Sequence record: PZ386967.1 | Length of the DNA stretch: 64,000 nucleotides | DNA from: a phage | Reading direction: 5' to 3' (one strand) | Program-made: the position numbers and the translations under genes | In this document: positions 20,705-47,696 of the stretch, piece after piece | How positions within the stretch are numbered: position 1 is the stretch's first letter | Layout: each line of letters starts with the position of its first letter | Notes under the pieces: generated by a model | Seen by the model: only the letters and a program-made list of their open reading frames with translations | What the model was told of the DNA's origin: nothing | The model's database searches: none

Positions 20705-20712
20705 TGTTCAGA

Positions 20713-24807: not shown

Positions 24808-26043
24808 TCAGCGTTTCAAGAGTGCCATGAGGTTGACGCTGCTGGACTTCGGCTTGTCCTCAACCTTGCGCACAGGCATCTTCAGGTTCGTACATACCTC
24901 GGATGGCTCCCAGCGCGTACCCTTTTGCAGGTGCCAGATATGCAGAGGAACACCAGTCTCAAAGAACACAGGCATCTTCCACTTCTGGACGCCTGGAACG
25001 TGCCCTGCAGGAGCCTTTTCGCACAACAGGGTATCTGGCAGCCAGAGCGAACGGGCTTCCCAGAGCGCTGCGCAGGAGTATTCAGGCCAGACGCGTTCCA
25101 TGTAGTCTATTTCATCCCAGGTACGCTCTGCGTCCCACCCGATGTAACGGGTATTCTTCAGTCGGAAGAATTTCTTCAGCCAACAAGCACCGGAGGTTTC
25201 AAAGTTCAGACGGTTGATGAACGTCAGGTGTCCGAACTCAGCCACACAATCCTGGAACGCCTGCTCAAGGTCGGCCTCAAGGATGTCACACTCTTCATCC
25301 GTGATAGGGCAACCGTTGATCTTTTTCTTCCCGTGTTTAGTCACCCAATCGTCACGGTTGGACAAGAACGCCGCGCCATTACGGTTGGACTCGCTTCCAT
25401 CACGATCACGCAGCATGAAGCCAGGGACGTCAATGGTGTATTCGTTCCCGAAGACCATGTTCAGGGCTTCCAGGAAGTTCCAGGCGCTCAGGCGACCGAA
25501 GTATTTCCAGGACATCGCCGTGTCCCACAGCTGGGTGAATTGTTCTGTCTTATCGATGCACACCAACATCCCACGGAAAGCGTCATATTGAGTACGGCCA
25601 GCCAGCCAGTCAATATAGGACTGAACACACGGAATCATCTTGGACTTGCGGTAGCGGCAATCGGTATCGAATCGCATGCGATCAAAGTTCAGATTATACC
25701 AATCAGAGAAGCGCTGCATCTCTTCCTTAGACTGAGGCGGCACAGGGAACTCACTGTAGATCGTCCACGGCCCGACGGCGTTATAGCAACAACCCCACAG
25801 GAATGCCATCCAGATCTTGCGCTCGACTTTCTGTTCGAGGCTGATGCCTTCAGTGACTTCGATCGCATAGTCCATCAGACGCATCTGCTGGTTGTGCTCT
25901 TCTGTGTAGGACAGCGCCTCCACCCAAGCCTTGAGCAGGTACATGCGATTCTCAGGCTTGCGATAATCAACAGCCAGGTCAATCGGGTACTTCCATTCAG
26001 CCGGAGGTGTATAGCCCGTCGGCATTTTAGATAAATGATGCAT
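24808..26043 (-). CDS. hypothetical protein (candidate DNA-modification enzyme by context only)
   Basis: 411-aa ORF, ATG start, Trp/Cys-rich; no motif recognised. Confidence 0.5.
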   Translation of the reverse strand: MHHLSKMPTGYTPPAEWKYPIDLAVDYRKPENRMYLLKAWVEALSYTEEHNQQMRLMDYAIEVTEGISLEQKVERKIWMAFLWGCCYNAVGPWTIYSEFPVPPQSKEEMQRFSDWYNLNFDRMRFDTDCRYRKSKMIPCVQSYIDWLAGRTQYDAFRGMLVCIDKTEQFTQLWDTAMSWKYFGRLSAWNFLEALNMVFGNEYTIDVPGFMLRDRDGSESNRNGAAFLSNRDDWVTKHGKKKINGCPITDEECDILEADLEQAFQDCVAEFGHLTFINRLNFETSGACWLKKFFRLKNTRYIGWDAERTWDEIDYMERVWPEYSCAALWEARSLWLPDTLLCEKAPAGHVPGVQKWKMPVFFETGVPLHIWHLQKGTRWEPSEVCTNLKMPVRKVEDKPKSSSVNLMALLKR

Positions 26044-26404: not shown

Positions 26405-26604
26405 TTTGGTTCCTTGAATATTTTATAGCCAGCAGCGCCGATAGCCATAATCGCGCCGATACAATACAACATGGTCAGGTTCATCTTCTCTGAGGTTGTT
26501 AAGTCCAGAGGGGTGAAATGATAGGCTAGGGCAGTACACATTGAAACGGCTGCCATAACCAGACCAATGAACAACAGATAATTAGACAACCGTTTCATGA
26601 TCAC
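26401..26604 (-). CDS. small membrane protein
   Basis: 67-aa ORF with two hydrophobic helices; ATGA coupling. Confidence 0.4.
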   Translation of the reverse strand: MIMKRLSNYLLFIGLVMAAVSMCTALAYHFTPLDLTTSEKMNLTMLYCIGAIMAIGAAGYKIFKEPK

Positions 26605-27518
26605 CCCTTCTTCATCAGGTCAAGGAGAGAGCGCGACGCTGCCTTCGTTGCTTCTGGCTGGGCGCTCGCCTTGGTTTTAGTTTTGGATGCCTTCTGCGGC
26701 TTCTCAGGGACTCTGTGCGCCAAAGGATCCTGGCCGCCGATTTCACGAGTCATCGGATTGGTTTCACAGTAGGCGTAGAAGTCTTTGGTGTCCATGTTAA
26801 CTTCACGCAGTTCGGACCGTATCTGATGACAAATCGCATTACCCACAACCCACAGCGGGGCGTCGTATGGGAGCACCGCCAACTCGGACTGCTGTTTGGT
26901 CGTGAACTCCTGGGTGTTGGTCTCTGGCGCTTTATACAGGATATCCTGTCCGCTGTAATCATCAACAGCCACAGTGAAGCCCAGCGCCAGCATTTCGGCC
27001 TTCGACTTCTCAAACTCCTTGGAGTAAGATTCGTTGCGTGACCAGCCGGAGTTCCCTGCTTCTTTACCAGATCGACCACGGATACGAGCATCGTACTGAT
27101 AGCGGTCGGGGTACGCAAAGTACAGCAGCGCCAATGATTCAATCGGATAGTTCTTGAACATCCATTCAGGACGCCATTTGTCCGACAGCATGAGGGGTTC
27201 ACCCTCACACACCAGAGTGTATCCCTGAACCAACCAGCACTTGATTAGATCACGAGCAATATCGCCTGAGCCTGTAGCAGCATGGATTGCATCCATTGAA
27301 GTCCAGGAAGCCAGGCCGGATTTGTTAGACACGGTGTACTGTCCAACGAAGATTAACTTCAGCTCTCCGAACTTCAGGCCAAACGGGCGAGTCTTGTCAC
27401 CAACGGTGTAGGTCAGTTCGGTAGGCTCCAGCTTCGTACGGAGCCATTCGATGAACTGGACCACTCTCGTACCCTTGCCCGTGGCCGAGGTGCCTTTCAC
27501 TACGATAATTTTTGCCAT
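26601..27518 (-). CDS. P-loop kinase (polynucleotide kinase-like; candidate DNA or nucleotide kinase)
   Basis: N-terminal Walker A KIIVVKGTSATGKGT, similar in layout to T4 Pnk N-terminus (KIILTIGCPGSGKST); 305 aa. Confidence 0.55.
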   Translation of the reverse strand: MAKIIVVKGTSATGKGTRVVQFIEWLRTKLEPTELTYTVGDKTRPFGLKFGELKLIFVGQYTVSNKSGLASWTSMDAIHAATGSGDIARDLIKCWLVQGYTLVCEGEPLMLSDKWRPEWMFKNYPIESLALLYFAYPDRYQYDARIRGRSGKEAGNSGWSRNESYSKEFEKSKAEMLALGFTVAVDDYSGQDILYKAPETNTQEFTTKQQSELAVLPYDAPLWVVGNAICHQIRSELREVNMDTKDFYAYCETNPMTREIGGQDPLAHRVPEKPQKASKTKTKASAQPEATKAASRSLLDLMKKG

Positions 27519-27832: not shown

Positions 27833-28612
27833 CTATCGGACGTATTGATAATGACTAATCAGGCGGTTCACCACTTCGAAGATATTGTGGTTCAGGAAGT
27901 CGAAGTGATTCTGGCCTTCTACTGGTTTAATATAAAGCATGTCTTCCGAATTCGAAAGATCCAGTTTTTCATAATTGCCCTGAGGAACAAAGATGACAAA
28001 GATGTTGTTCAGGCCGCACGGCTCGACATACTTCGGATTGTCATCAATCAGGACATCGCCAGCCAGCAGATGCTTTTCGTCGGTACTGACAAACCCGTTG
28101 AAGATACCAGGGAACTTATCATAGACAAACTGACGCTTGCTGCGCTCGTGTTCCGGCTCACACTTGGACACTGCGATGAATTCAACATTGTCGAAATCTT
28201 CAAGCAAGATCTCCTTCAGATTTACCAGGAACTCGTAAGCGCCGGGGAGCGGGTTCATCTTGGCGTACAAGTCAGGGCGACGCCACCAGTCCATAGGATC
28301 GTTACCGCTTGGCACACGTTGTTTGTGCATCCCCAATTGGACTTCATGGTATAGCCACGCCGGATGCGCACGTTCACGCATCAGAATAGCCAGGTCGCCA
28401 GCATGGGACATATAACACTCTTTGGTGATCGGCTGGAACTGGTATGACTTATGTTCCCCCGTAGCGATAGCAGCGGCGGCGATGTTCTCTTCGTTAAACC
28501 ACTGCACCCAAGGGGAGAGGCTGTCGACCAACGTCAGGTCAACATCCACGAGGACGCGATACAGGCCACCGACCTTTGATTTCATATCATAGATACAAAC
28601 CAGGTTGTTCAT
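27833..28612 (-). CDS. HAD-superfamily phosphatase
   Basis: N-terminal DVDLTL matches HAD motif I (DxDxT); ATG with GAGGAA SD. Confidence 0.55.
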   Translation of the reverse strand: MNNLVCIYDMKSKVGGLYRVLVDVDLTLVDSLSPWVQWFNEENIAAAAIATGEHKSYQFQPITKECYMSHAGDLAILMRERAHPAWLYHEVQLGMHKQRVPSGNDPMDWWRRPDLYAKMNPLPGAYEFLVNLKEILLEDFDNVEFIAVSKCEPEHERSKRQFVYDKFPGIFNGFVSTDEKHLLAGDVLIDDNPKYVEPCGLNNIFVIFVPQGNYEKLDLSNSEDMLYIKPVEGQNHFDFLNHNIFEVVNRLISHYQYVR

Positions 28613-29012: not shown

Positions 29013-32012
29013 TCAACCTTTCTTCTTTTGCATCATGGCAAGAAGGTTCACACGGCGCTTGTGCGACCAGCCGACCACGTCAAGGATGGACTGAATCGGG
29101 TCAATGAAGGACTTCTCAAAGGCCGCCTGATAATCCACCCATTTGCCCAGACCAAGCTCCTCAGGGAAGAACTCAGGATATGCGAAGTAATTCTGGCCGA
29201 ATGGGTTGCCTGGCTTCAACAACACCATCTGTACCTTATCACCCGACTCGATCATCGGTAGACCCAGATCTTCGTTCTTCTCAACCAGACGGTTGTAGCC
29301 CACACACGCCTTGGCAGCAAAATGAGCACCAGAGATGAACGATCCGTCAGCAGCCACACACTTCTCTATGTCGGACACGCCGGAAGCCTTGGCGATATCG
29401 TCTACAGAGAGTTTCATGTACTCCTCTTTGTACTGGGAGATGAGCGCCTGTACTTCCTCTTCAGTGCCGAGTAGGATCTTCTCATAGCACTTGACAAGAC
29501 GCTCACGACACCATTCCGGCGTGGTGGACTTGCGGGCTTCCAGACCTTTGAACTTGATCTTCGGCTTCTCGTACTTGATACCCTCACTGTCGTACACGGC
29601 CATGGCATACATCTTCTTGGCTCGCCAGACAGCGGCTGACGCAATGACCTCACGCTCCCATACCATGCGCTGTTCAAATCCGTTCATGGTGTTACACAGA
29701 AGCTGTGCCCACTCATTGGTCTTCGGCTGGTAGTTGTCTTTGATCCATTGGTCGATATTATCAACCATAGCATGATGGTCAGTAACATCAGGCCACAACT
29801 GCTTGACAAGACGCTCAATGCAGATGTAGTTGGAGTCGGTATCACCTGCGATGACGAAGTCCTGGCCTGTTGTACCACACAGCTTGTTCAGATAGTCATC
29901 AGTGTAACGCTTGTTCCACTTGTTGATCAGCTGACCGGATGTGGTGATGGCTTCGGCAATGTTGAGGTTGAAGTACTCTTTGAACCAGACGTTCGAGATA
30001 GCGCCATAACCTGCGTTCATCAAGATCTTCAGACCTTGCTGTAGGGTGTCTTGAGCAACGCCCAGATCTTCCCACTTCTTCATCACTTCGGTCAGTGCAT
30101 CAAGATCAATGTTCTTGTGCTCTTCATACCACTCTGGGTCATAGTAGCGAGACTTCATGGCAGACTCAAGATGGAAGTCGCCCTTCGACATCTCTTTACA
30201 CCAGCCAGCCCACTGCTCATACTTCAGACCCTTGGCCTTCTCTACTTTACGGTCGCTGTAGATACCACGCATGATTTCAGACAGGAACGACATCTTCTCG
30301 TTGCTGAAGAATTGAACGTTCGGCGTGAACGACACGTTGTAGCGGCGCAGGGTTTCAAAGTGGAACTCACCCAGGGCAACCAACTCATCAACAACCTGCA
30401 GGCGTTCGTCAACCGCACGCAACAGCTTGTCGTGAAGGGCTTTCATCAACCGACGTTTGTGCATCGGCGTTGCCATGTTATTCATCTGAGCAGCCAGCTC
30501 TTCACACATAGCCTCAATAATCTCGCGGCGCTGGTGTTTGTCGCCAACGATAGTCTCTGGACCGAGGTTGTACTGCTGAATGATGTGAGGATACAGGGAA
30601 TTCAAATCTTCCGAGAAGACCCAGAAGTAGATTCCTGGTGTCACATCCATGACGTATGCACCCTCAAAGTCGGTCGGACCATCGTATACACGCTGGATCT
30701 TAGGCACTATCCCCTTCTCGTACAGGCGATAGTAGCACATGGCCAGCCACGGAGCCACAGTTCCCAGACCGTCTTCATAGTTGGACTTGGTGCGGTAGGC
30801 CAGGACGAACATCAGCTGGAGCAGGCGCAGCTTCTGTTCAAGTCGCCATACCAGCTTAACGTCTTTGATACCATATCGGGTGTGTTTGCAGTAGTCGTTG
30901 AAGTACAGATCAAAGAGCGACTTGCTCTCACTGTAGTCCATCTTCTTCTCACCCAGCTCACAATACGCAATCCAGTCAAGAGAGTAGCGTTCACGGGTGG
31001 TGTACGTGTGTTTCTTGTAGATCTGCATATAATCGAGCATAGGACAGCCCACGAACTGATACGTCGTGATATCGCCCTTCTTATCGCGAATGATACGCTT
31101 CTTAATGATACCCCAAGGACTGAGGCGCGACGTTTCAGCCTCACCCAGAACCTGATTCATGCGCTCAACAAGATACGGGCTATCGAACGTTTCAATGTTC
31201 CAGCCTGTCCAGCCGTCGAACTGACGCTCCGACCAGAAGTCAAGGAAAGATCGCAGCAGATCTTGTTCGGTGGTGAACTCCTGATAAACAACCTCAAGGC
31301 CGCCGATCTCTTTGTCTTCGGTGTCGTATGCGAATTTGTTACGATCTTTGGCACAGGGCATACCCCAGACCATGAACTTATTGGTCGCCATATCCTGAAG
31401 CTGGATCAGGGTAATGGGGAACGCCGCATTCATGTCTTGGGTGATCTTGCCGTTGCTGTCAATGATAGGGAACTGATCAGTGACGTTGTTGCTGATGAAA
31501 GAACCAGGGAAGTGCTCACGGACAAAGTCATGGTTGGCCAGCACTTGTTTATGGAAGCGGCGAATGCGCGCCTCATTCCCTTTGAACGTCTGCTGCTCAA
31601 TAGTTGGGTGAGGGAATGGACCTTTGGTCATCTTTCCGTCTTTCCACCCGGCGGAGAATACTTCGATATCGAGGTTAGCAATATGGATGTTGGAGTAATC
31701 CGGCTCAATCTTTCCAGGAAAGCTATGGGCGATGAACTGGTATGCATAATCGGTCTGCCCATAAATGGCAGCACCCTGGACTTCCTTGTACTCTTCAAGA
31801 TAGTTGTCAGCGTCACGCATGGAAGGGAACTGCTTGGCTACCAGGGGTTCATTGAGAAGGCCGACCTTTTCAACATTTGAATAGTCAGCCGTGGGTAAAT
31901 AGAGAGTGGGTTCGAATTTCTTTTTCAACAGACGGCGATTACCCATGTCATCTGCAATTCGAATCAACAGGTCATTGCCCCTGCGGGCAACGTTCGTATA
32001 GAAAACGGTCAT
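29013..32012 (-). CDS. 43: family-B DNA polymerase (T4 gp43-like)
   Basis: N-terminus matches recalled T4 gp43 (YLPT..., QKFPSM[KR]DA); YGDTDS-type polymerase motif AGDTDS; 999 aa; ATG with GGAG SD. Confidence 0.9.
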   Translation of the reverse strand: MTVFYTNVARRGNDLLIRIADDMGNRRLLKKKFEPTLYLPTADYSNVEKVGLLNEPLVAKQFPSMRDADNYLEEYKEVQGAAIYGQTDYAYQFIAHSFPGKIEPDYSNIHIANLDIEVFSAGWKDGKMTKGPFPHPTIEQQTFKGNEARIRRFHKQVLANHDFVREHFPGSFISNNVTDQFPIIDSNGKITQDMNAAFPITLIQLQDMATNKFMVWGMPCAKDRNKFAYDTEDKEIGGLEVVYQEFTTEQDLLRSFLDFWSERQFDGWTGWNIETFDSPYLVERMNQVLGEAETSRLSPWGIIKKRIIRDKKGDITTYQFVGCPMLDYMQIYKKHTYTTRERYSLDWIAYCELGEKKMDYSESKSLFDLYFNDYCKHTRYGIKDVKLVWRLEQKLRLLQLMFVLAYRTKSNYEDGLGTVAPWLAMCYYRLYEKGIVPKIQRVYDGPTDFEGAYVMDVTPGIYFWVFSEDLNSLYPHIIQQYNLGPETIVGDKHQRREIIEAMCEELAAQMNNMATPMHKRRLMKALHDKLLRAVDERLQVVDELVALGEFHFETLRRYNVSFTPNVQFFSNEKMSFLSEIMRGIYSDRKVEKAKGLKYEQWAGWCKEMSKGDFHLESAMKSRYYDPEWYEEHKNIDLDALTEVMKKWEDLGVAQDTLQQGLKILMNAGYGAISNVWFKEYFNLNIAEAITTSGQLINKWNKRYTDDYLNKLCGTTGQDFVIAGDTDSNYICIERLVKQLWPDVTDHHAMVDNIDQWIKDNYQPKTNEWAQLLCNTMNGFEQRMVWEREVIASAAVWRAKKMYAMAVYDSEGIKYEKPKIKFKGLEARKSTTPEWCRERLVKCYEKILLGTEEEVQALISQYKEEYMKLSVDDIAKASGVSDIEKCVAADGSFISGAHFAAKACVGYNRLVEKNEDLGLPMIESGDKVQMVLLKPGNPFGQNYFAYPEFFPEELGLGKWVDYQAAFEKSFIDPIQSILDVVGWSHKRRVNLLAMMQKKKG

Positions 32013-33584: not shown

Positions 33585-33612
33585 AAGAAAGGGGCTTAAC
33601 GCCCCTTTTCTT
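33585..33612. terminator. bidirectional terminator between convergent genes
   Basis: Hairpin AAAGGGGC-TTAA-CGCCCCTTT flanked by an A-run and a T-run. Confidence 0.55.
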
Positions 33613-34069
33613 ATTCTTCCCAGAAGTCTTCGTCGTCCCCGACAGCAGCCAGTTCCGTGTCCAGTTCTTCATCGGTAAACGGTGGCAGCACCCCGTTCTG
33701 AATCAGATAATCCATCTCATCATCTTCCAGCTGCAGGTCGGTGGCAATATACAGCGCTCCGCTGCCCTCTTCGTCCGTCTCGATACTGTACGAAGTGTAT
33801 GGCACCCCATTCACTGTAATGATGATAGACGTTGGATCCTTGGGATCTACGTGCGCCTCGAACGGCACACCATCAATCGGTGCATCTTCTAGGAAGGTAG
33901 CAAGTGCTACGGCGGCGCGGACAACATCAGTGCCTTCAACGCCCGCATAGATCTCTTCCGCGCCTGTCTCTTCACGATCAAACAGCTCAATCGTGATACC
34001 GTCTTGAACACCAGTCCATACAGGGATGTCATTGGTGTATTCTGATTCAAACAATTTGGAGGTTGGCAT
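33611..34069 (-). CDS. acidic hypothetical protein, late-expressed
   Basis: 152-aa very acidic ORF; late-promoter-like motif about 30 nt upstream; GAGGAA SD. Confidence 0.5.
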   Translation of the reverse strand: MPTSKLFESEYTNDIPVWTGVQDGITIELFDREETGAEEIYAGVEGTDVVRAAVALATFLEDAPIDGVPFEAHVDPKDPTSIIITVNGVPYTSYSIETDEEGSGALYIATDLQLEDDEMDYLIQNGVLPPFTDEELDTELAAVGDDEDFWEE

Positions 34070-34213: not shown

Positions 34214-35428
34214 TCAGGAAGGGGTGAATTCGTTTACAGGAACTGTTTCAGGGATAGCCAGCTCAGGGCATGCTGCCTTCATCGGCTCGATGTATGGCTT
34301 GCTACCCACAATCCAGAACAGAGTGTTCTCATTGAGCAACTCGGGCTTGTGTTGCTGAACCCAGGTCATGACCTTGCCTTCATAGCGAGGATGCAACTCA
34401 ATATCACCCCACTGATATTCCATCAGGTCATTATAACGAACCCAATTAGTGGTATGAAGATCCCAATGGTGTACCTCAAAGCGAGGAAGCACGACCTCTG
34501 GCTCTTCCTTCTGCCTGATACCACTTAGGAGGCCAGCCAGCGAAACGCTCTTAGAGGCATGCTGAAGCTCCTTCTTGCCGTGTACATAGTCTGGGTTGTC
34601 GTGATAGCGACGGGTAAAGTCGACAATGTGCGGTAGATTGGCATGTTTGCCGATGATGCGCAGACGACTCTCGATAAAGTCCAGGCGGTTCGGACCGATG
34701 CCAATCAGATACACACGCTTCAGATTAGGCTTCGGATGCATTGCCAGCCCGGTCAGGATGCTTGTGCAAGAGTTGCACGATCCGGCTGGGATGATCAGGT
34801 CAGTAATGTGATCAGGAATGTTGGCAACCTGCTCGCCACCCAACATATGGAACCCAGCAATGCGCTCAGGGGAGTGGGCTGTATGGTCGAGGGTGATACC
34901 ATACTCCAGATAATACGCCTTTGGATTCTGTTGTTCGATCAACTTCTTACAGCGCGGCTGGATGGTGCTGTTGTAACCCGAGCCGACGAAGTTGAACTCA
35001 CTACCAAACCAGGCTGACATTGCCACCATTTCATGGTTCATACAGGTGGTGGGTTTGGTCGCGCCGAGCACAGTAGTTGTCTTGCCGCCGAAGTGCCGAG
35101 AGACTGCCGTCGCCATAGGGGACTGCGGACTACCAACGACAGTACCATGGATGATGTCAGGGGAGCCTCCGGTCATGAGGTGCTCAACCATCAACCAGAT
35201 GGCCTGGCGGAGTTTGCTGCCGTTGATGCCCTGCTGGCCATTTGCATAATTGGACAGCGGCGCAAAATAATCTTCACGCTTGAACCAGACCTGCTGGTTG
35301 GTTTCGGGGTTGACGACAAGTTCGCACGGGGTGTGCTTGTAGAGATAATCTTCCCAATGGACCAGGTTGCGGTCGAGGGAAAGGATATCGAAGATGGTCT
35401 TGTTCATTCTATTTTCTCCTGTAGACAT
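34214..35428 (-). CDS. PLP-dependent enzyme, fold type II (ACC deaminase / D-cysteine desulfhydrase-like)
   Basis: WFKREDY...GINGSKLRQA...HGTVVGSPQSP...FGGKTTTVLG matches the KREDL / GGNKxRK / G-rich PLP-loop pattern of that family. Confidence 0.55.
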   Translation of the reverse strand: MSTGENRMNKTIFDILSLDRNLVHWEDYLYKHTPCELVVNPETNQQVWFKREDYFAPLSNYANGQQGINGSKLRQAIWLMVEHLMTGGSPDIIHGTVVGSPQSPMATAVSRHFGGKTTTVLGATKPTTCMNHEMVAMSAWFGSEFNFVGSGYNSTIQPRCKKLIEQQNPKAYYLEYGITLDHTAHSPERIAGFHMLGGEQVANIPDHITDLIIPAGSCNSCTSILTGLAMHPKPNLKRVYLIGIGPNRLDFIESRLRIIGKHANLPHIVDFTRRYHDNPDYVHGKKELQHASKSVSLAGLLSGIRQKEEPEVVLPRFEVHHWDLHTTNWVRYNDLMEYQWGDIELHPRYEGKVMTWVQQHKPELLNENTLFWIVGSKPYIEPMKAACPELAIPETVPVNEFTPS

Positions 35429-35477: not shown

Positions 35478-36122
35478 TTACTTCTTGAACAGACGAAGGA
35501 ACTTCATCATGTTATCCATGAAAGTTGGCTTCTTGGCCTTTTGTTTTACTGGAGCACCCTGATCATTCAGAACACGACTGGCCGGAGGAGTTGGATTCAA
35601 AGATTTAATTGCCTGATTCAAATCGGAATTATCCACGACACCCACTTCTTCACCGACCGTAACGCATGGTTTGATTAGAACGGATTTCTTAGACTGCTCA
35701 TACTGATGAGCGATATCCAGATATTTCTTGCGCTCTGCGTAGAAATCAACAGACTTGACCTTGCGACGACGCCAATTGGCGCTTTCTTCGCCATAGAAAT
35801 CATATCCGTTTCTGATCAGCCAGTGTACGGCTTGTTCAAAAGAACCGAAGACCATAAGTGGAGCACCCTGGCCTTTCTCAGATTGTTCCAGGCTACCATA
35901 ACCCATCAATACAACCTGGCCTTTGATACTCAAATCAAACGTCATACCAAGGTTCGGGATGTTTTTATCGCGGCGGAAGAACCCGCCATCACGGTAGACG
36001 TAAACAGGCGACAGGAACTCATTCAGAGTACGCTTGACACCCTTGTATCGGAAGAGTCTGACAATTGGAGGGGTGTCACGGGAAATCACTTCGTTCAATT
36101 CCCAGATAGAAACATTACGCAT
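35478..36122 (-). CDS. hypothetical protein
   Basis: 214-aa ORF, ATG start, basic C-terminus. Confidence 0.45.
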   Translation of the reverse strand: MRNVSIWELNEVISRDTPPIVRLFRYKGVKRTLNEFLSPVYVYRDGGFFRRDKNIPNLGMTFDLSIKGQVVLMGYGSLEQSEKGQGAPLMVFGSFEQAVHWLIRNGYDFYGEESANWRRRKVKSVDFYAERKKYLDIAHQYEQSKKSVLIKPCVTVGEEVGVVDNSDLNQAIKSLNPTPPASRVLNDQGAPVKQKAKKPTFMDNMMKFLRLFKK

Positions 36123-36245
36123 CGGTGTATCCTCAAATCTATGACAGGGGGTTAACGGTTAAATTTTAAACCCCCTTTGTATCATTGAACAAACTATGAT
36201 AAAGGAGGACATGCTTGGGTCGATAAGAAGATAATAAGACAGGGA

Positions 36246-36274
36246 TAAAAAGAAAGCCGGATAGGATATCCGGC
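36246..36274 (-). terminator. rho-independent terminator closing the tRNA cluster
   Basis: Hairpin GCCGGATA-GGA-TATCCGGC followed by a U-run on the minus strand. Confidence 0.5.
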
Positions 36275-36492
36275 TATACCACATCGATGGGTTGGGTTGA
36301 AAGACTACACGCTTACACTGGTACTACCCTATGGGAGAGCGCGTCAGGAGTCGAACCTGAAGTCGTCGACGTAGAGAAAGCTATTTGCATTTCACTATCC
36401 TCGCCGCGATTTTCTTAACTTCCTAAACACCCCGATTACGAGAGAGTCGACATGCACATCTTCTAACTCTTCAGGAAGTCACGCCCGTAATT

Positions 36493-36581
36493 TGGCGGAA
36501 GGTGAAGGATTCGAACCTTCGGGGGCTAAAAGCCCCACTCGATTAGCAGTCGAGTCCCTTAAACCTCTCGGGCAACCTTCC
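36493..36581 (-). tRNA. tRNA-Ser (anticodon GCU)
   Basis: Hand-folded cloverleaf: acceptor GGAAGGT/ACCTTCC, anticodon loop CTGCTAA, long variable arm, T-loop GGTTCGAATCC, encoded CCA. Confidence 0.8.
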
Positions 36582-36801
36582 AATTTGGACGGGCTTCACA
36601 CCCGATTGAGCATTTGATCTGCTGTAGCCCAACTCCCCGCGCTTCTCAGCGCCGATTGGTTAACTGGCGACCAGTGCCTTCTGGTTCGATCTCCTGGAAC
36701 TTTACAGGCTTTGCGCCCGACCATTTCTGGAAGTTGGGGCATCGTTTCCGATGTGGAGTCACCCCATTTTATACACAGCTGGCTGCAACGCTTACTGTGT
36801 T

Positions 36802-36886
36802 TGGTGTGAGTGGATGGATTCGAACCACCGCGCTGTTACGGGGAGATTTACAGTCTCCTGCATTCGACCGCTCTGCCACACTCACA
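36802..36886 (-). tRNA. tRNA-Tyr (anticodon GUA)
   Basis: Acceptor GTGAGTG/CACTCAC, anticodon stem GGAGA/TCTCC with loop CTGTAAA, long variable arm, T-loop TTCGAAT, encoded CCA. Confidence 0.75.
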
Positions 36887-37142
36887 TTTGGTCTGCCGCT
36901 GCGTGCTGGGCCACGCTCGAGGACATCGGCCATCCTTCCTCAGCTAATCCACGCAGCGGTAGATTTGTATCAGAGTGTCCGGTGTAGCAACCCGTGAGGT
37001 GCGCACTACTGTAGCCTCTACACTCTGAATTTGGTGGGCGTTACTATCGTCGTCTTCGGATTCCGTTCGGCTATTGGACAGAGGCTTGGAGCTTGTCGGT
37101 CGCGTACTTTATGCCTATTCACTTTCGTTCACACCCATTGTC

Positions 37143-37218
37143 TGGCGACGATGGCAGGACTTGAACCTGCGACATACGGTTTAACAGACCGCCGTTCTAC
37201 CGACTGAACTACATCGTC
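37143..37218 (-). tRNA. tRNA-Asn (anticodon GUU)
   Basis: Acceptor GACGATG/CATCGTC, anticodon loop CTGTTAA, T-arm CAGG-TTCAAGT-CCTG, encoded CCA. Confidence 0.8.
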
Positions 37219-37389
37219 TTGCAAATCACTATACCATATAAAGTTTATTGAACAAACATTTATTTTACAACAAACTGTATTGGCGGGGTCTGAGGCTTTT
37301 CACCTCACCTGCTGGGTTTGGCCGCCCAGCCGTTCTCTATGAGGATTCACTGTCCGGACAGCTATCCATTAAACTATCGCCCCTCAATA

Positions 37390-37466
37390 TGGTGATCCTG
37401 ATTGGGTTTGAACCAATGACCAATGAATTATGAGTTCACTGCTCTAACCGACTGAGCTACAGGACC
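37390..37466 (-). tRNA. tRNA-Met (anticodon CAU; initiator, elongator or Ile2 not resolved)
   Basis: Acceptor GGTCCTG/CAGGATC, D-arm TAGCTCAGTCGGTTAGAGCA, anticodon loop CTCATAA, T-loop GGTTCAAACCC, encoded CCA. Confidence 0.8.
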
Positions 37467-37469
37467 AAA

Positions 37470-39285
37470 TTATTGTGTGACCAACCAAGGACTGTCAACC
37501 CTTTATCCCGTTTGTGCATGATCAGTTCATACAGGCCTCTTTGTGCTGCCTCACGGCATGCGCTTCTGTTGGTCATTGGCTTACACTGTGGCCTCACAAC
37601 AGGCGTTTATTTTTCCAGGGCTTTCCACTTACAAGTCTTAACCAGACCGGGATACGGGCTTGTAAGATCGGGTTGGACACAACTTTGAGGACACTGACGA
37701 CGTATACGAGTCACCCATAACAGATATTCGGATGCCAGTGTCCTCAAAGTTGCAACCAATGTCGCAACTCGCAGCTTCCATACAGAAGCAACTTGTCCTC
37801 TAACGCTCGGACCAAACGAGGCTGGCTGGTTGATTCAGAGCCGCTGGTTGCTCCAGCAAGCATGGGTTGATAGCCCGGCAACATAGAATCACCCAAAGAT
37901 GAAGAACATTCATGACTCACATCACACCACGAATGGCCTGAAAGAGAATCGAACTCTTTAAATGCTCTTCATTTTGTGAACTTGAGAATACTACGCCTGT
38001 CTCGGGTTTCCCCTTAGTTCGGCCTCCCAGTCCTCGCCGCGCCGGGTAGCTAACCCTGATGGCTCGTCTGCTACTGAGTTCTTCTTGGTGCCCACCAGTG
38101 TCCGGAATGTGTAGACATCGCAATCTGCAAGGCATGGTCTATTTCACCCAATGCTCTCTCAAGTTCACAAATCGAAGTGCCCTGACTCAACAGTATGGCC
38201 CAATATGCTGTTATCGTCCACCGGATTGGCCGCCCAATTTGTAGATCAACCTTTGGGTTTAAGATAAATTGTCAAGGCACTTCGATTTGTGTGCCCTTCA
38301 CCTGCCAGGGATCAGGGCTGATGGCAAGACTTCGCTCACATCTTTCAAGATACTCGTGAGAATATCCTCAAAGATGTGGAGCCGTTTTAGGGAGTCGAAC
38401 CCAAATGCTCGGCCAGCGCTGACCTTACATCCCATCTGACTTAGGCAACCCACCTCTGCTTACTCAGGAGCTTATCCCCTTTGGACAGTCAGATATAACG
38501 GCATTGTCGACGGGAGCTTATTAATCACACCCTCCCGTCTATTGTTAGTGCGCCGAATTTGTTGATGAGGAATCGGAAGACCTCACTGACTTATAGGCTA
38601 TTACGCCGCCATCAGAACTTCGGAATCATTAGCAGTTATTTGCTTGGTCAGTTTCTAAAACCCGCAAAGTCACGCACAACGAAAACGAAAACCTGTTTGA
38701 GTCCTAAACGTACCTGTCTTGGTCTCACAACACTATGAGTGGCCAGGACTCAAACAGCTTGCCGTTCAGTGGGTTAACTATACTTTGTAACCCGTTATTG
38801 ATAAAACCTTTTATTTTTGTTGGCGAGGGCGTCACCATCGATTTACCGGAACTTACGCATCCGGCCTCGCCTGTTGGTGCTCCTTCGAATCCGGGAAGAT
38901 TAGTAGGAACTATGAATCAAGTTAATTCGACCAACAGGAACCTTGTTGCCCTTTGACGCAACATTATGAACCCTCTGTGAAGACTCATAATGTTGTCGGC
39001 GTGATGGAGATTAGCGCCCCCGACCTCCCCTTATACGTTGGTGTCGACTTGCCAACAGGGTGCTCTCTGATTCTGAGCTAATCACGCTACAACAGGGAGT
39101 TTCGTTCTCCGACGGTCAGTGCGTCCACCGACACCAGCGAGGTTGATATTACGCCTCTATTCGTCACGGTGCCCTGAGACTGGGCTTTCCTGGTTTCGGG
39201 TTCCAACCCTACTCCCACCGCGCTATTCGCCTCGTGTTTAATACTTTACTACAGCCCAACTAATTTGAAAAGTCCTCTCCTCTTT
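37470..39285 (-). ncRNA. candidate structured non-coding RNA locus (unclassified)
   Basis: About 1.8 kb with no credible ORF in any frame, visibly more GC-rich than flanking genes, with several long-range perfect inverted repeats of 12-17 bp; directly downstream of a small ORF and upstream of the tRNAs on the same strand. Strand and boundaries are guesses. Confidence 0.3.
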
Positions 39286-39432
39286 GAGCTACACTGCCCA
39301 CAGCAGTGCGGACGAACCTGAACTCAAAACCGGATGCGCCGAAGTGGGCGTCTGTTTACCGGACTGATCGGGTCGACCCAGGAGAGAGCAGGTAATCCCG
39401 ATCAGAAGGATGAGGAGTAACATCATGTAAAA
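39286..39432 (-). CDS. small hydrophobic peptide (48 aa, below the ORF-track cutoff)
   Basis: Hand-translated MFYMMLLLILLIGITCSLLGRPDQSGKQTPTSAHPVLSSGSSALLWAV with GGAGGG SD 6-8 nt upstream. Confidence 0.3.
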
Positions 39433-39492
39433 CATAGTGTTCCCTCCCTTCCATGCAAATAACTTTACTGCAATTATTTATTGAATAAAGCG

Positions 39493-44243: not shown

Positions 44244-44283
44244 ACTAAATACCCCTAGATGAAACGAACACATTTAGGGGTAT
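44244..44283 (+). promoter_or_regulatory. late-promoter-like motif ACTAAATAC plus 5' leader hairpin
   Basis: CTAAATA core, then inverted repeat ATACCCCTA / TAGGGGTAT whose 3' arm holds the only G-rich SD-like sequence before ATG 44289. Confidence 0.45.
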
Positions 44284-44288
44284 TTGAA

Positions 44289-47200
44289 ATGGCTAATAAA
44301 CCAACACAGCCTGTTTTCCCTCTCGGTCTGGTGGCTGAAGAGCAGTCTACTTTGGCTGGTGTCGTCAACACGGGTACGATTGAGCATGGACCAGATGCTG
44401 TCCTGACTTTACCCGAGGGTAATGCCAGCGCAGGACTCCCGTCTTCCGTTCGCTACAATGCCGACTCCGACGAATTTGAGGGCTTCTATGAAAATGGTGG
44501 ATGGTTGCCGCTGGGTGGCGGTGGTATCCGCTGGGAAGTCCTTCCGCATGCCTCTACGGTAATGCTCACTGAAGGGCGAGGCTATCTCATTAATAATACC
44601 ACAGGGGCATCTACAGTGGTTCTCCCTTCCCCTACGCGTATTGGGGATTCCGTTACTATTTGTGATGCTTATGGGAAATTTGCCACTTACCCATTGACCG
44701 TGTCTCCTTCTGGAAATAATTTGTATGGCTCCACTGAAGACATGGCTATAACAACTGATAACGTATCAGCAACGTTCACTTGGTCTGGACCTGAACAAGG
44801 TTGGATTATTACATCCGGCGTCGGTCTTGGCCAAGGCCGTGTCTACAGTCGTGAAATCTTTACAAAAATTTTGGCGTCTGAAACAAGTACTGTCACTCTC
44901 AATACTCCACCAACAATCGTGGACGTGTATGCTGACGGAAAACGCCTTGCGGAATCCAAATATTCACTAGATGGGAATGTAATCACTTTCAGTCCTTCTT
45001 TGCCAGCCAGCACAGAACTTCAGGTGATTGAATATACTCCTATTCAATTGGGTAATGGCGGTGGTTCTAGTTCTTCTACGATTACTTGGGTCTATAATGG
45101 GGGTTCAGCGATTGGCGGTGAAACCGAAATCACGTTGGACGTCGTTGTTGATGATGTTCCGGCCATTGATATAAACGGAAGTCGTCAGTATAAAAATCTG
45201 GGATTCACATTCGATCCATTAACCAGTAAAATCACTCTGGCGCAAGAACTGGAACCAGAAGATGAAGTTGTTGTAATCATCAATGGAACACCAAACATCT
45301 ATAATCAAATTGATCATACTTTGCGGGAAGTGGCTCGTGTAACCAATGTTAAAGATACAGAGGTCGTTTATTTTAGTGTTGGTGCTGTGCTAAGCGGGTA
45401 TAAAGTTATCTATGATAAAGTAACACAGAGATCATATTTTATTCCAGAGCTACCGACTGGAACCACGGCAGTCAGCCTTAGTTCTTCGGCTGTACTTGTG
45501 CATTCTGCTGGTAGTGTTGATCTGGGCGCATTAGCCGTATCTCGTGAGGAGTATGTGACCTTACCTGGTTCATTCGATACAGGTGTAACTGTTAATACCA
45601 AGAATGAGTTGGTTGTGAGTAACGATATTAAATATCGTTGGGATGGTTCTGTACCCAAAGTAGTCCCTCCAGAATCTACCCCATTGGGTACAGGAGGTGT
45701 TGGTCCAGGGGCATGGCTTGTAGTTGGTGTTGTTGGATTAGAGCAACGTTTAGCCTCCTGGAAAGGTTCTTCTCTTATTGATTCCGGTAGTCTGTCTCTT
45801 TACAAAAAGAGCGGTGTATTCGGTGATGGTGGGAATGTATCCGATAAATATCAGGTTGTTCTACATTCAGATGGGTTCTGGTACAAGTACAATGGGACAC
45901 TACCTGTTAGTTATGGTGCTGCCCCAGACTCTTCTTGGACTAACGTTGGTAAGCTAACAGGGTTTAATGAACACTCACCTGAGAATTTTGGTGCAATCCC
46001 CAATGACCCTAGTTTTGACTGTTTACCTGCTATAAAACTAGCTATAGCCACAGGTACATTAAATCTGAATGGGAATTCTACCTACCACGTAACGGATGAG
46101 GTTGTTATACCTTCTTACTTACGTGGGAATCTAAACGGGGCAACAATTAAAGCAATTGGCTCCGTATGGCCTACGTTAAAAGCTGTTGTACGCGTTAGTA
46201 AATTTCCTGTCGGTACAGCAACAGTGGATGTGGCTAATACAGAGAATCAAGTGCGAGGATTACGCTTAATCGGTAGCTTAAACGTAGACTGTGCAGATAT
46301 TGCATCATATGGTTTTTATGCACGTCTTCTGTGTGCAGAATCTGAGATGGGTAGCATCTATGCATATAATGCTAATAGATATGGCATTGTAATGTTTGCT
46401 TGCTGGTATTTTCAAATGGGCACTCTCCATGCAAACAACTGTGCAAGGGGTATGGCATTAGGTTATTCAACAGAAGGTGAGCAAGGGGATACCTATGTGA
46501 ATGCTACACACTTCCCTCACATTAGTGCATGGGGTACTGATAAGTCTACGGGACTAGGTTATGACCCAATCACGGATGATGCGAGTAAATATACAATAGG
46601 TGCTGGTATTATCTTAGGTCGTGGTTTGTCTACCAGTGTTGGTGTGATTTGCTCTGAGAATACGGCAGGTGCTGGGGTAGTAACAATGGACCCTGCTGCG
46701 TGGGACATTGGGGTCATGTACTGTGAGGGTAATAGTAAAGACTTTACTCAAGAGGGTGAACCCAAGGTGTCATTGCTGTCATCCAAGGCCAACAGTGAAA
46801 GTCATACGCTTACCATCTCCACACTCCACCTTTCCGCAGGTTGTGGCATTTTAACCAGAAGCAATCAAGAGCGTGTGCTAATCAGAAGTCTATATCGCTT
46901 TGATAACGCAAAAACCTTCCACTCTTACTGCACAGCAGACACAGTAGAGGTTGGTAGCAGCAACTACTATGTACTTAACGGGCATAATTACAATGCACCT
47001 GCTGCACTTATTAAGGAACCGCTCAATGTAGACTTTGTGCGTTCAGGGTTGACTTTAAGTGAGTGGACATCTACAGTTATCGGTCATTTTGCTGGTAGTA
47101 CAGCAGAACAACAGCTTTATGTTAAGCTCCCAGCAAGTCCCAGCGGCCTAGATTTACAGATAGATAGTGAGGATGGGACGGAATATATCACTGTAACTGG

Positions 47201-47342: not shown

Positions 47343-47350
47343 TATAATAA

Positions 47351-47380
47351 AAAGCCCCCAATTTTGGGGGCTTTTATTAT
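47351..47380 (+). terminator. rho-independent terminator
   Basis: Hairpin AAAGCCCCC-AATTTT-GGGGGCTTT followed by a T-run. Confidence 0.6.
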
Positions 47381-47414
47381 ATAGAGTTTACTGTTTTCAT
47401 TACCCTGATTGATA
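47374..47414 (+). repeat. about 40-nt intergenic repeat, copy 1
   Basis: TATATAGAGTTTACTGTTTTCATTACCCTGATTGATA; near-identical copy at 55206..55246. Confidence 0.6.
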
Positions 47415-47597
47415 ATGCTGTTGGCTCTCTCGGGTTGTCATCAAACGGGTATAAGAACTTTATAGGTGATATCAATGATGGGTCAGCGTATTTTTATTTC
47501 ACCAACATAGATGGATCAAGAATATCGGGGTCGTCTGTTTATGATGGGTGGGGTGATGTTGGTATACATTTTGAAATGTGTCTGGAATAGGAGTGTC

Positions 47598-47696
47598 AAA
47601 CCCCGCTTTGGCGGGGTTCTTATTATACCTTTGTTCATAAATTTGATTAGTTCAGACTAAATACTCCATATTGGTCATCCTTTATGGGGTATTATC
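47598..47696 (+). repeat. duplicated tailspike upstream cassette, copy 1 (hairpin, late-promoter-like motif, leader hairpin)
   Basis: About 85% identical by eye to 50575..50675; includes GACTAAATAC at 47655-47664 and leader hairpin ATACTCCATA / TATGGGGTAT at 47661-47692. Confidence 0.6.

What the first reader, a model, noticed from the sequence alone, without database searches (positions are those of the whole stretch)
34214..35428. PLP-dependent fold-type-II enzyme (ACC deaminase / D-cysteine desulfhydrase-like) in a phage
This enzyme family is unusual in phages. The sequence has the family hallmarks (KREDY, GSKLR with the Schiff-base lysine, Gly-rich loop GTVVGSPQSP). It could act on an amino-acid-derived DNA modification (for example decarboxylation or elimination on a base-linked serine or glutamate) or remodel host metabolite pools.
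Basis: partly seen in the sequence, partly recalled or inferred. Interest (0 to 1): 0.5.

Follow-up and report, generated by a model that had tools for sequence, protein, structure and literature searches.

The report
Phage DNA-base serine decarboxylase (known)
This gene is the counterpart of an already characterised phage enzyme (Salmonella phage ViI gp226) that uses vitamin-B6 chemistry to trim a serine attached to thymine in the phage's own DNA, so the finding is real but not new; a short peptide it shares with the phage DNA polymerase tail hints that it may ride on the replication clamp.

Summary
The ORF is real: 34214-35428 (-), 404 aa, with a probable true start at 35407. All three quoted motifs are present. 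The window is an Agtrevirus-like Ackermannviridae phage, collinear with Salmonella phage ViI.

The protein is 91% identical over 395 ungapped residues, and syntenic, to ViI gp226. Published work shows that purified gp226 binds PLP and decarboxylates O-serinyl-thymidine in DNA to give the hypermodified base 5-NeOmdU. Orthologues of two partner enzymes also lie in the window: 5-hmdU DNA kinase 2 and the serine:DNA transferase.

Profile and fold searches confirm a fold-type-II, ACC-deaminase-like enzyme. K72 aligns to the Schiff-base lysine and Y349-E350 to ACC deaminase Y294-E295.

One point may be new. The only disordered loop of the protein (284-307) carries a peptide, SVSLAGLL. It resembles the C-terminal tails of the phage's DNA polymerase, kinase and transferase. 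These peptides co-vary between phage lineages: NLLxMM, KKLW, T4-like SLExFF and QSLF. This suggests tethering to the sliding clamp, which is untested.

The parts
34214..35428 (-). PLP-dependent decarboxylase gene, orthologue of ViI gp226 (longest ORF 404 aa; probable true start is the ATG at 35407, giving 397 aa)
   Evidence: ORF; 91% identity over 395 ungapped aa to ViI Vi01_182/orf00226; PHROG 3650 E=2e-238; Pfam PALP E=7e-7; AF2 pLDDT 90; Foldseek top hits are D-Cys desulfhydrase and ACC deaminase
35416..35420 (-). Shine-Dalgarno AGGAG, 8 nt upstream of the ATG at 35405-35407 (M8), the likely real start
   Evidence: sequence; the PHROG alignment starts at residue 8
35213..35215 (-). Codon of K72, the predicted Schiff-base (internal aldimine) lysine, in GSKLR
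   Evidence: aligns with ACC deaminase K51, ViI gp226 K92 and M6 gp52 K36; invariant in 43 homologues; lies at the N-terminus of helix 71-85
35123..35131 (-).
   Evidence: profile alignment to 1rqx/1f2d; all three residues invariant
34769..34789 (-). PAGSCNS (214-220), the probable PLP phosphate-binding loop
   Evidence: aligns to yeast ACC deaminase ..CCVTGSTT..; lies between strand 210-215 and helix 218-230; G216 and N219 invariant
34373..34393 (-). HPRYEGK (346-352); Y349-E350 are equivalent to ACC deaminase Y294-E295
   Evidence: HMMER alignment lHPtYEgKvm vs TDPVYEGKSM; H346, P347, Y349, E350 and K352 invariant
34508..34579 (-). Disordered surface loop 284-307 (GKKELQHASKSVSLAGLLSGIRQK) carrying the polymerase-tail-like peptide SVSLAGLL (294-301; 34526-34549)
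   Evidence: pLDDT<50 only here and at the N-terminus; the loop motif co-varies with partner-enzyme tails across lineages; PWM rank 6 of 19,288
26601..27518 (-). 5-hmdU DNA kinase 2 (orthologue of ViI gp243), the upstream pathway enzyme; C-terminal tail ..SRSLLDLMKKG (26604-26645)
   Evidence: 85% identity to ViI orf00243; Pfam HMUD2 PF18747 E=3e-158; tail
24808..26043 (-). Serine:DNA transferase / aGPT-Pplase2 (orthologue of ViI gp247), which makes the O-serinyl-T substrate; tail ..SSSVNLMALLKR (24811-24852)
   Evidence: 90% identity to ViI orf00247; Pfam ADDT PF18724 E=7e-60; tail
29013..32012 (-). Family-B DNA polymerase (gp43-like), whose C-terminal tail ..RRVNLLAMMQKKKG (29016-29057) is the template of the shared peptide
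   Evidence: collinear with the ViI polA gene; tail
35478..36122 (-). Upstream gene of the same leftward unit (PHROG 4050, unknown function; ViI orf00224 homologue); amphipathic tail ..FMDNMMKFLRLFKK
   Evidence: synteny
33611..34069 (-). Downstream gene of the same unit (PHROG 3852, acidic 152-aa protein, unknown function)
33587..33609 (.). Bidirectional terminator-like hairpin that closes the three-gene unit
36255..36275 (-). Terminator-like hairpin upstream of the unit, after the tRNA cluster

Best explanation
The gene encodes the Agtrevirus orthologue of Salmonella phage ViI gp226. That enzyme is a fold-type-II (ACC-deaminase-like) PLP enzyme that works on polymeric phage DNA and catalyses the last step of thymidine hypermodification.

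The pathway runs as follows:
- 5-hmdU is incorporated during replication.
- The 5-hmdU DNA kinase phosphorylates it (gene in window, 26601-27518).
- The serine:DNA transferase replaces the phosphate with L-serine through an ether link, giving O-serinyl-thymidine (gene in window, 24808-26043).
- This enzyme forms an external aldimine between its PLP, held by K72, and the free alpha-amine of the DNA-borne serine. It removes CO2 and leaves 5-(2-aminoethoxy)methyl-dU (5-NeOmdU).

5-NeOmdU replaces about 40% of T in ViI-like DNA and blocks many restriction enzymes.

Shown in the literature for the 91%-identical ViI protein: PLP binding, and decarboxylation of O-SerT DNA with loss of one labelled carbon.

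Inferred here: orthology; the roles of K72, the S100/P101/Q102 loop, the AGSCNS phosphate loop and Y349/E350 (Glu at the pyridine N, as in ACC deaminase, would suit a carbanionic intermediate); and, more tentatively, recruitment to newly replicated DNA through a clamp-binding-like peptide in loop 284-307.
For: - Orthology: 91% identity over 395 ungapped residues to ViI Vi01_182 = orf00226 = gp226. The window is collinear with ViI across its whole length, with the same neighbours.
- Function of gp226: it is listed as the 'PLP-dependent decarboxylase'. The purified protein is yellow with a 410-425 nm absorbance. It converts O-SerT DNA to the 301-u nucleoside, and 13C3/15N-serine-labelled substrate loses one carbon. 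Omitting gp226 from lysate mixes gives a product 44 u heavier (PMC8989533; PMC5889632).
- Partner enzymes in the window: HMUD2 PF18747 E=3e-158 and ADDT PF18724 E=7e-60, 85% and 90% identical to ViI gp243 and gp247. The remaining pathway genes (gp67, gp160) are present in the closest relatives of the window phage. A review states that the modification genes are conserved across Ackermannviridae (PMC11721090).
- Fold and active site: the profile hits ACC deaminase (E=3e-5) and D-Cys desulfhydrase. Foldseek gives prob 1.0 and E=4e-11. K72, S100, Q102, G216, N219, Y349 and E350 are invariant in 43 homologues down to about 40% identity.
Against: - No experiment exists on this particular protein or phage, and 9% of residues differ from ViI gp226.
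- The Pfam PALP score (29.3) is below the gathering threshold (35), and no NCBIfam model hits. Family placement therefore rests on profile and fold comparison.
- Decarboxylation is atypical chemistry for fold-type-II enzymes (own knowledge), and the residue-level mechanism is inferred from alignment only.
- dUMP hydroxymethylase, the second kinase and aGPT-Pplase1 lie outside the window, so the completeness of the pathway in this genome is inferred from relatives.
Confidence: 0.9

Rival explanations
1. It is a small-molecule enzyme, such as threonine/serine ammonia-lyase, ACC deaminase or D-cysteine desulfhydrase, that remodels host amino-acid or metabolite pools. Many GenBank records annotate the orthologues this way ('threonine dehydratase / ammonia lyase').
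For: GenBank and UniRef names such as 'threonine ammonia lyase' and 'threonine dehydratase'. The nearest solved structures are ACC deaminase and D-Cys desulfhydrase.
Against: Those names are automatic transfers. No NCBIfam equivalog for these enzymes hits at E<=0.1, and identity to them is only 13-15%. The orthologue was shown to act on DNA-borne serine as a decarboxylase. The gene always travels with 5-HMUDK and AADT genes, often adjacent to them. ACC deaminase Asn79 is replaced by an invariant Pro.
Confidence: 0.03
2. It belongs to the same enzyme family and acts on DNA, but in this Agtrevirus it performs a different reaction or uses a different appended amino acid. The final base would then differ from 5-NeOmdU.
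For: 9% sequence divergence from ViI gp226. Related clusters in metagenomes combine the PLP enzyme with Tet/JBP dioxygenases or glycosyltransferases, which suggests chemical diversity.
Against: All invariant and near-invariant residues are retained. The transferase that selects the amino acid is 90% identical to ViI gp247. The ViI-like phages tested from different genera, including a Vibrio phage, all gave the same 301-Da nucleoside (PMC5889632).
Confidence: 0.05
3. It is a catalytically dead relic or a scaffold protein.
For: The sub-threshold Pfam score.
Against: The lysine and all cofactor-contacting motifs are invariant. The gene is intact and highly conserved in more than 340 phage genomes. 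The fold prediction is confident.
Confidence: 0.01

Closest known systems
Salmonella phage ViI (Vi01) gp226, YP_004327553 / CBW38050: PLP-dependent O-serinyl-thymidine decarboxylase (Lee et al. 2018 PNAS; Lee et al. 2021/22 NAR)
   Same: 91% identity over 395 ungapped residues. Same genomic neighbours and orientation. Same predicted Schiff-base lysine (K92 in ViI numbering = K72 here). Same partner genes (gp243 and gp247 orthologues). Same internal loop peptide SKSVSLAGLL.
   Different: A different phage genus (Agtrevirus-like vs Kuttervirus). The ViI annotation starts 20 codons further upstream, whereas the start here is most likely M8. 35 substitutions. Not tested biochemically.
Pseudomonas phage M6 gp52, YP_001294560: PLP-dependent decarboxylase of C-alpha-glycinyl-thymidine
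   Same: The same reaction class (PLP decarboxylation of an amino acid attached to thymine in DNA). The same PALP fold. The lysine aligns (K36 with K72).
   Different: Only about 22% identity, with hhalign probability 23%. It is 278 aa and lacks the C-terminal extension and loop. Its substrate is C-linked glycine made by a radical-SAM isomerase, which this phage lacks. Its product is 5-NedU.
ACC deaminase (PDB 1TYZ/1RQX, 1F2D) and D-cysteine desulfhydrase (PDB 4D8T), fold-type-II PLP enzymes
   Same: Best sequence-profile and fold matches. The KRED strand, the Schiff-base Lys (K51 with K72), Ser78 with S100, Gln80 with Q102, the phosphate loop, and Y294-E295-G-K with Y349-E350-G-K are all conserved.
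   Different: 13-15% identity and about 65 residues longer, with an inserted disordered loop. Asn79 is replaced by an invariant Pro101. No NCBIfam equivalog hit. The orthologue's reaction is decarboxylation of a DNA-borne substrate, not ring-opening deamination or beta-elimination of a free amino acid.
T4 gp43 and gp55 C-terminal sliding-clamp (gp45) binding peptides (SLDFLFG, SLDFLY); by analogy, DNMT1-PCNA coupling of DNA modification to replication (own knowledge)
   Same: The tails of the window's polymerase, kinase 2 and transferase, and the PLP enzyme's loop, share one short hydrophobic peptide. In T4-like metagenomic relatives the corresponding peptides are SLESFFE, SLEGFFV and SLENFF, close to T4's SLDFLFG.
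   Different: In the PLP enzyme the peptide is internal, not C-terminal. The enteric Ackermannviridae version (V/S-N/S-L-L/M-x-L/M-L/M) differs from T4's. No binding data exist. A claimed T4 alpha-glucosyltransferase-gp45 interaction was recently not reproduced (bioRxiv 10.64898/2025.12.06.692756).

Membership tests
ViI gp226-type DNA O-serinyl-thymidine decarboxylase | Full-length high identity to the characterised protein | tested here: met
   91% identity over 395 aa with no gaps; tblastn
ViI gp226-type DNA O-serinyl-thymidine decarboxylase | Conserved genomic position (between the orf00224 and Vi01_183 homologues, near the DNA polymerase) | tested here: met
   The window is collinear with ViI
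ViI gp226-type DNA O-serinyl-thymidine decarboxylase | Co-occurrence with 5-hmdU DNA kinase and amino acid:DNA transferase | tested here: met
   PF18747 E=3e-158 and PF18724 E=7e-60 in the window; 85% and 90% identity to gp243 and gp247
ViI gp226-type DNA O-serinyl-thymidine decarboxylase | Predicted internal-aldimine lysine (ViI K92) | tested here: met
   K72 aligns to ViI K92 and is invariant
ViI gp226-type DNA O-serinyl-thymidine decarboxylase | Binds PLP and decarboxylates O-SerT in DNA; the virion DNA contains 5-NeOmdU | not testable with these tools
   Shown only for ViI gp226 and ViI-like phage DNA
Fold-type-II PLP enzymes (Pfam PALP, PF00291) | Pfam score at or above the gathering threshold | tested here: not met
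   29.3 bits against a cutoff of 35, E=7e-7, covering residues 33-256
Fold-type-II PLP enzymes (Pfam PALP, PF00291) | Tryptophan-synthase-beta-like two-domain fold | tested here: met
   AF2 pLDDT 90.2; 340 PDB matches at E<=1e-3, all listed ones fold-type-II enzymes, best at E=4e-11 and prob 1.0
Fold-type-II PLP enzymes (Pfam PALP, PF00291) | Schiff-base Lys at the N-terminus of a helix, and a Gly/Ser/Thr-rich phosphate loop at the N-terminus of a later helix | tested here: met
   K72 at the start of helix 71-85; AGSCNS (215-220) before helix 218-230; both align to the ACC deaminase equivalents. The geometry was not inspected with the cofactor.
ACC deaminase / D-cysteine desulfhydrase | Hit to curated equivalog models | tested here: not met
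   No NCBIfam family at E<=0.1; a single-sequence PDB search found nothing at E<=1
ACC deaminase / D-cysteine desulfhydrase | Active-site residues K51, S78, N79, Y294 and E295 (ACC deaminase numbering; own knowledge of their roles) | tested here: inconclusive
   K, S, Y and E are conserved; N79 is replaced by the invariant P101
ACC deaminase / D-cysteine desulfhydrase | Deamination or beta-elimination of a free amino acid | not testable with these tools
   The orthologue does decarboxylation on DNA, which argues against functional membership
Sliding-clamp-binding peptide (T4 gp43/gp55 type) | Resemblance to the C-terminal tail of the phage's own DNA polymerase | tested here: met
   A PWM from 13 tails, with the PLP enzyme excluded, ranks SVSLAGLL 6th of 19,288 positions and 3rd among non-training sites
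Sliding-clamp-binding peptide (T4 gp43/gp55 type) | Co-variation with the polymerase and partner tails across lineages that use different clamps | tested here: met
   Enteric NLLxMM; Vibrio KKLW with loop RRLFG/KKLWG; T4-like SLExFF with loop DRFF/TSFF/LDFF; beta-clamp-encoding phages have AADT tails ending in QSLF; small phages have neither loop nor tails
Sliding-clamp-binding peptide (T4 gp43/gp55 type) | Location at an extreme terminus | tested here: not met
   In the PLP enzyme the peptide is internal (res 294-301), though in a predicted disordered loop. In the kinase 2, AADT and aGPT-Pplase1 it is C-terminal.
Sliding-clamp-binding peptide (T4 gp43/gp55 type) | Physical binding to the clamp | not testable with these tools
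   No multimer prediction or binding assay was available

The most novel reading that the evidence does not exclude
The thymidine-hypermodification enzymes of clamp-encoding phages may be physically coupled to the replisome. These enzymes are 5-hmdU DNA kinase 2, both aGPT-Pplase/AADT paralogues, Tet/JBP thymine dioxygenases in T4-like relatives and, through an internal disordered loop, the PLP decarboxylase studied here.

Each carries a copy of the short peptide that forms the C-terminal tail of that phage's own DNA polymerase, which is the clamp-binding peptide in T4 and RB69. The peptide changes in step between lineages: V-N-L-L-x-M-M in enteric Ackermannviridae, K-K-L-W in Vibrio relatives, S-L-E-x-F-F in T4-like phages, and Q-S-L-F in phages that encode a beta-type clamp.

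Post-replicative base hypermodification would then be delivered by the sliding clamp, analogous to DNMT1-PCNA. I found no statement of this in the two founding papers or in the searchable library.
Probability: 0.5. Interest if true: 0.55.

Novelty: already known. Interest (0 to 1): 0.25.

Why it matters
As a gene call, the result mainly corrects annotation. Orthologues are still labelled 'threonine dehydratase/ammonia lyase', 'DNA repair protein' or 'hypothetical' in GenBank. The gene should instead be named the PLP-dependent O-serinyl-thymidine decarboxylase of the 5-NeOmdU pathway.

The call predicts that this phage's DNA carries 5-NeOmdU. That affects its sensitivity to restriction and CRISPR, its sequencing and its cloning.

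The enzyme is mechanistically unusual, being a fold-type-II PLP decarboxylase that acts on a polymer, but this is already published.

The shared, co-varying polymerase-tail peptide would matter if confirmed. It would explain how a multi-step chemical pathway finds newly made DNA, and why only about 40% of T is converted. It would also give a simple sequence signature for finding further DNA-modifying enzymes in phage genomes.

Tried and rejected
- A single-sequence search of PDB chains found nothing at E<=1. Only the 43-sequence profile reached ACC deaminase.
- NCBIfam gave no hit for the PLP enzyme, the kinase or the transferase.
- I tested for a close relationship to M6 gp52. It is only a remote homologue (hhalign probability 23%), so the window protein is of the gp226 type, not the gp52 type.
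- I looked for the rest of the pathway in the window (second kinase gp67, thyA-like dUMP hydroxymethylase, dUTPase). None is present. They map to ViI 36-39 kb, outside the window's span. gp160 maps to ViI 87-89 kb, also outside.
- The Rfam scan of the whole window found only the four tRNAs.
- The sigma-70 promoter scan around the gene was not clearly above shuffled expectation (7 sites against 3.1 +/- 1.9), and I did not rely on it.
- The tail of the upstream PHROG-4050 protein (FMDNMMKFLRLFKK) looks similar by eye. It does not score with the tail PWM, so I do not count it as a motif carrier.
- Two other internal PWM hits (55399-60285 at position 578; 21399-21854 at position 40) are probably chance matches.
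- ViI gp33, ligase, gp32, gp59, thyA and gp67 lack the tail. ViI gp55 has only a loose look-alike, FSLEDIMDS.
Full report
**Observation**

Its translation contains KREDY (residues 50-54), GSKLR (70-74) and GTVVGSPQSP (95-104).

It is a real gene, on four counts:
- It matches PHROG 3650 end to end (E=2e-238).
- It has tblastn matches in 348 phage records.
- It has 751 database homologues at E<=1e-3.
- It folds confidently (AF2 mean pLDDT 90.2, pTM 0.89).

The first ATG (35428) has no good ribosome-binding site. A canonical AGGAG (35416-35420) sits 8 nt upstream of the second ATG (35407). Family alignments also begin at residue 8-10. The true product is therefore probably 397 aa. I keep the 404-aa numbering below.

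**Where the window comes from**

Megablast places the window in Agtrevirus-like Ackermannviridae. The best matches are Enterobacter phage fGh-Ecl02, Escherichia phages AV101, A221 and PC3, and Shigella phage Ag3, at 91-97% nucleotide identity. The window is collinear in reverse orientation with Salmonella phage ViI (Vi01). It runs from ViI ~22.2 kb back through the origin to ~111.4 kb.

**What the gene is**

The protein is 91% identical over 395 ungapped residues to ViI Vi01_182, whose record note reads orf00226. This is gp226. It has the same neighbours on both sides.

Two papers establish what gp226 does (Lee et al. 2018, PMC5889632; Lee et al. 2021/22, PMC8989533):
- It is one of five ViI proteins sufficient to rebuild the hypermodified base 5-(2-aminoethoxy)methyl-dU (5-NeOmdU) on 5-hmdU DNA.
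- Leaving it out gives a nucleoside 44 u heavier.
- The purified protein is yellow, with a 410-425 nm absorbance.
- It converts O-serinyl-thymidine in DNA to the 301-u product.
- Isotope-labelled serine loses exactly one carbon.

Two upstream pathway enzymes also lie in the window:
- The gp243 orthologue is at 26601-27518 (-). It is 85% identical and matches Pfam HMUD2 '5-hmdU DNA kinase 2' at E=3e-158.
- The gp247 orthologue is at 24808-26043 (-). It is 90% identical and matches Pfam ADDT 'amino acid:DNA transferase' at E=7e-60.

The second kinase (gp67), the thyA-like hydroxymethylase and aGPT-Pplase1 (gp160) lie outside the window. They are present in the closest relatives of the window phage. 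A recent review states that the modification genes are conserved throughout the family (PMC11721090).

**Fold and active site**

Pfam PALP matches below threshold (29.3 bits against 35, E=7e-7). NCBIfam and a single-sequence PDB search find nothing.

A profile of 43 homologues (alignment A1) hits ACC deaminase (1RQX/1TYZ at E=3e-5; 1F2D) and D-cysteine desulfhydrase (4D8T). Foldseek with the AF2 model returns D-Cys desulfhydrase and ACC deaminase first (E=4e-11, prob 1.0). Other fold-type-II enzymes follow.

Residue by residue:
- K72 aligns with ACC deaminase K51. It also aligns with the published predicted lysines of ViI gp226 (K92 in the longer ViI annotation) and M6 gp52 (K36). It starts helix 71-85.
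This is the Ser/Asn loop, not the phosphate loop.
- AGSCNS (215-220), before helix 218-230, aligns with the ..VTGSTT.. loop of yeast ACC deaminase. It is the probable phosphate loop.
- HPRY349E350GK aligns with ACC deaminase DPVY294E295GK.
- All these residues are invariant in the family. The Asn-to-Pro change at position 101 is also invariant and distinguishes the family from the deaminases.

My reading of the roles is inference. A Glu at the pyridine nitrogen, as in ACC deaminase, would favour the carbanionic intermediate that decarboxylation needs. A remodelled carboxylate-binding loop could reorient the Calpha-COO- bond.

**Operon context**

The gene is the middle of three leftward genes. 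The order is a PHROG 4050 gene (36122 to 35478), the PLP gene, and a PHROG 3852 gene (34069 to 33611). Both flanking genes have unknown function. Terminator-like hairpins bracket the unit at 36255-36275 and 33587-33609.

**Rivals**

GenBank names such as 'threonine ammonia lyase' or 'threonine dehydratase' would imply a metabolite-pool enzyme. Several results contradict this: the biochemistry of the orthologue, the obligate association with kinase and transferase genes, the lack of equivalog hits and the 13-15% identity to those enzymes.

A different product base in this genus cannot be excluded without mass spectrometry. It is unlikely, because the amino-acid-selecting transferase is 90% identical to its ViI counterpart.

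**A detail that does not seem to be published**

The AF2 model has one internal disordered segment, residues 284-307 (pLDDT<50): GKKELQHASKSVSLAGLLSGIRQK.

The peptide SVSLAGLL resembles the extreme C-termini of three other window proteins:
- DNA polymerase: ..RRVNLLAMMQKKKG.
- Kinase 2: ..SRSLLDLMKKG.
- Serine transferase: ..SSSVNLMALLKR.

ViI gp160 (aGPT-Pplase1) ends ..GSVNLLDRLKKPE. A 70-aa CxxC protein, ViI orf00053, ends ..KVNLLSLMRK. ViI gp67, ligase, gp32, gp59 and thyA do not carry the peptide.

I built a weight matrix from 13 such tails, excluding the PLP enzyme. It ranks the PLP loop site 6th of 19,288 positions in the window's proteome, and 3rd among sites not used for training.

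The peptides change together between lineages:

| Lineage | Tails of polymerase and partner enzymes | PLP enzyme loop |
|---|---|---|
| Vibrio phage D503 | Polymerase, kinase, AADT and aGPT-Pplase1 all end in [KR][KR]LW | KTRRLFGG; relatives have KKLWG |
| T4-like metagenomic phages (some with the cluster beside the gp45/gp44/gp62 genes) | Tet/JBP dioxygenase and AADT end in SLESFFE, SLEGFFV, SLENFF, TLERFFG | DIDRFF, LTSFF, ILDFF, FENFY |
| Two lineages (L010, L047), of which L010 encodes a beta-type clamp | AADT ends in ..VQSLF or ..TQSLF | Loop deleted |
| Small phages | No tail motif | No loop |

The T4-like tails are close to T4 gp43 ..SLDFLFG and gp55 ..SLDFLY. From my own knowledge, these are the gp45 clamp-binding peptides. 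Also from my own knowledge, QSLF resembles the bacterial beta-clamp motif.

The simplest reading is a common partner, most likely the sliding clamp. The clamp would deliver the whole modification pathway to freshly replicated DNA. This is inference only.

Neither founding paper mentions a clamp, and library searches found no such proposal. A similar claim for T4 alpha-glucosyltransferase and gp45 was recently not reproduced, which is a caution.

**Comparison with known systems and verdict**

The gene is a member of the ViI gp226 family by every testable criterion. It works like M6 gp52 but is only remotely related to it. It has the fold and most catalytic residues of ACC deaminase without being one.

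The enzyme and its pathway are already known, including for Agtrevirus genomes listed in the 2018 paper. Interest in the finding itself is low. The clamp-peptide co-variation is the only part that might be new.

Noticed in passing
window 29016-29057, 26604-26645, 24811-24852 (all - strand); loop at 34508-34579 (-); L007:37432-38655(-); L003:30355-30567(-); L005, L009, L010, L035, L083: The DNA polymerase, 5-hmdU kinase 2, AADT and aGPT-Pplase1 share a C-terminal peptide (V/S-N/S-L-L/M-x-L/M-L/M-K). The PLP enzyme has the same peptide in an internal disordered loop. The peptide co-varies between lineages (KKLW in Vibrio phages, SLExFF in T4-like phages, QSLF in a phage that encodes a beta-type clamp). 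It is a candidate clamp-binding motif that would link hypermodification to replication.
   Followed up: yes
L003:30355-30567 (-) (ViI orf00053; outside the window): A 70-aa CxxC protein of unknown function ends with the same tail (..SDKVNLLSLMRK). It may be another partner of the same hub protein.
   Followed up: no
window 35478-36122 (-): The gene immediately upstream of the PLP gene (PHROG 4050, unknown function; ViI orf00224) ends in an amphipathic basic tail, FMDNMMKFLRLFKK (ViI: SFFRRLMDFLTK). The tail looks related to the shared peptide but does not score with the tail PWM.
   Followed up: partly
window 36493-37466 (-), within 36200-39490: A cluster of four tRNA genes (Ser-GCT, Tyr-GTA, Asn-GTT, Met-CAT) lies in a ~3.3-kb stretch with almost no ORFs of 90 aa or more. 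Rfam finds nothing else there.
   Followed up: partly
window 44259-55145 (+): Four large ORFs (1027, 809, 839 and 638 aa) lie in a region where GC drops to 41-45%, against ~50% elsewhere. Only short N-terminal pieces match ViI. This is the tail-spike (host-range) cassette, apparently exchanged horizontally.
   Followed up: partly
window 27833-28612 (-): An NT5C-like 5'-deoxyribonucleotidase (Pfam PF06941, E=1.5e-8) sits between the polymerase and kinase 2. It could help shape the pyrimidine pool, for example by removing dTMP, in favour of 5-hmdU incorporation.
   Followed up: no
window 29013-32012 (-); compare L016:6802-8394 and L021:13860-15293: The DNA polymerase gene is intact here (999 aa). 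In several relatives the first part ends early at ..SEDLNSLKLAA, and records annotate two polymerase pieces plus a homing endonuclease.
   Followed up: no
L009:8656-16217: A metagenomic T4-like contig has a tight cluster: Tet/JBP dioxygenase, PLP homologue, AADT and P-loop kinase 3. It lies directly next to the gp45 clamp and gp44/62 clamp-loader genes. This suggests a hypermodification route that starts from oxidation of T in DNA.
   Followed up: partly
L010:10001-15213 and 20311-21092: A 183-kb contig has a PLP homologue, an AADT (tail ..VQSLF) and a 713-aa GT2 glycosyltransferase. It also encodes a DNA pol III beta-type clamp. It may make a glycosylated amino-acid-thymidine modification.
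   Followed up: no
L033:10010-11213: In one otherwise 94%-identical IMG/VR genome the PLP gene is split into two ORFs (241 + 179 aa). This is either a frameshift or pseudogene, or a sequencing error.
   Followed up: no
L063:4560-6608 and L064:3775-5823: The longest ORF spanning the PLP-homologue match is 682 aa in these contigs. It overlaps the ORFs that match the AADT and the kinase. This may reflect gene fusions of the kind reported by Lee et al. 2021.
   Followed up: no
window 3268-3777 (-): A dCMP deaminase orthologue (64% identity to ViI orf00033) is present. It feeds dUMP to the hydroxymethylase at the start of the same pathway.
   Followed up: partly
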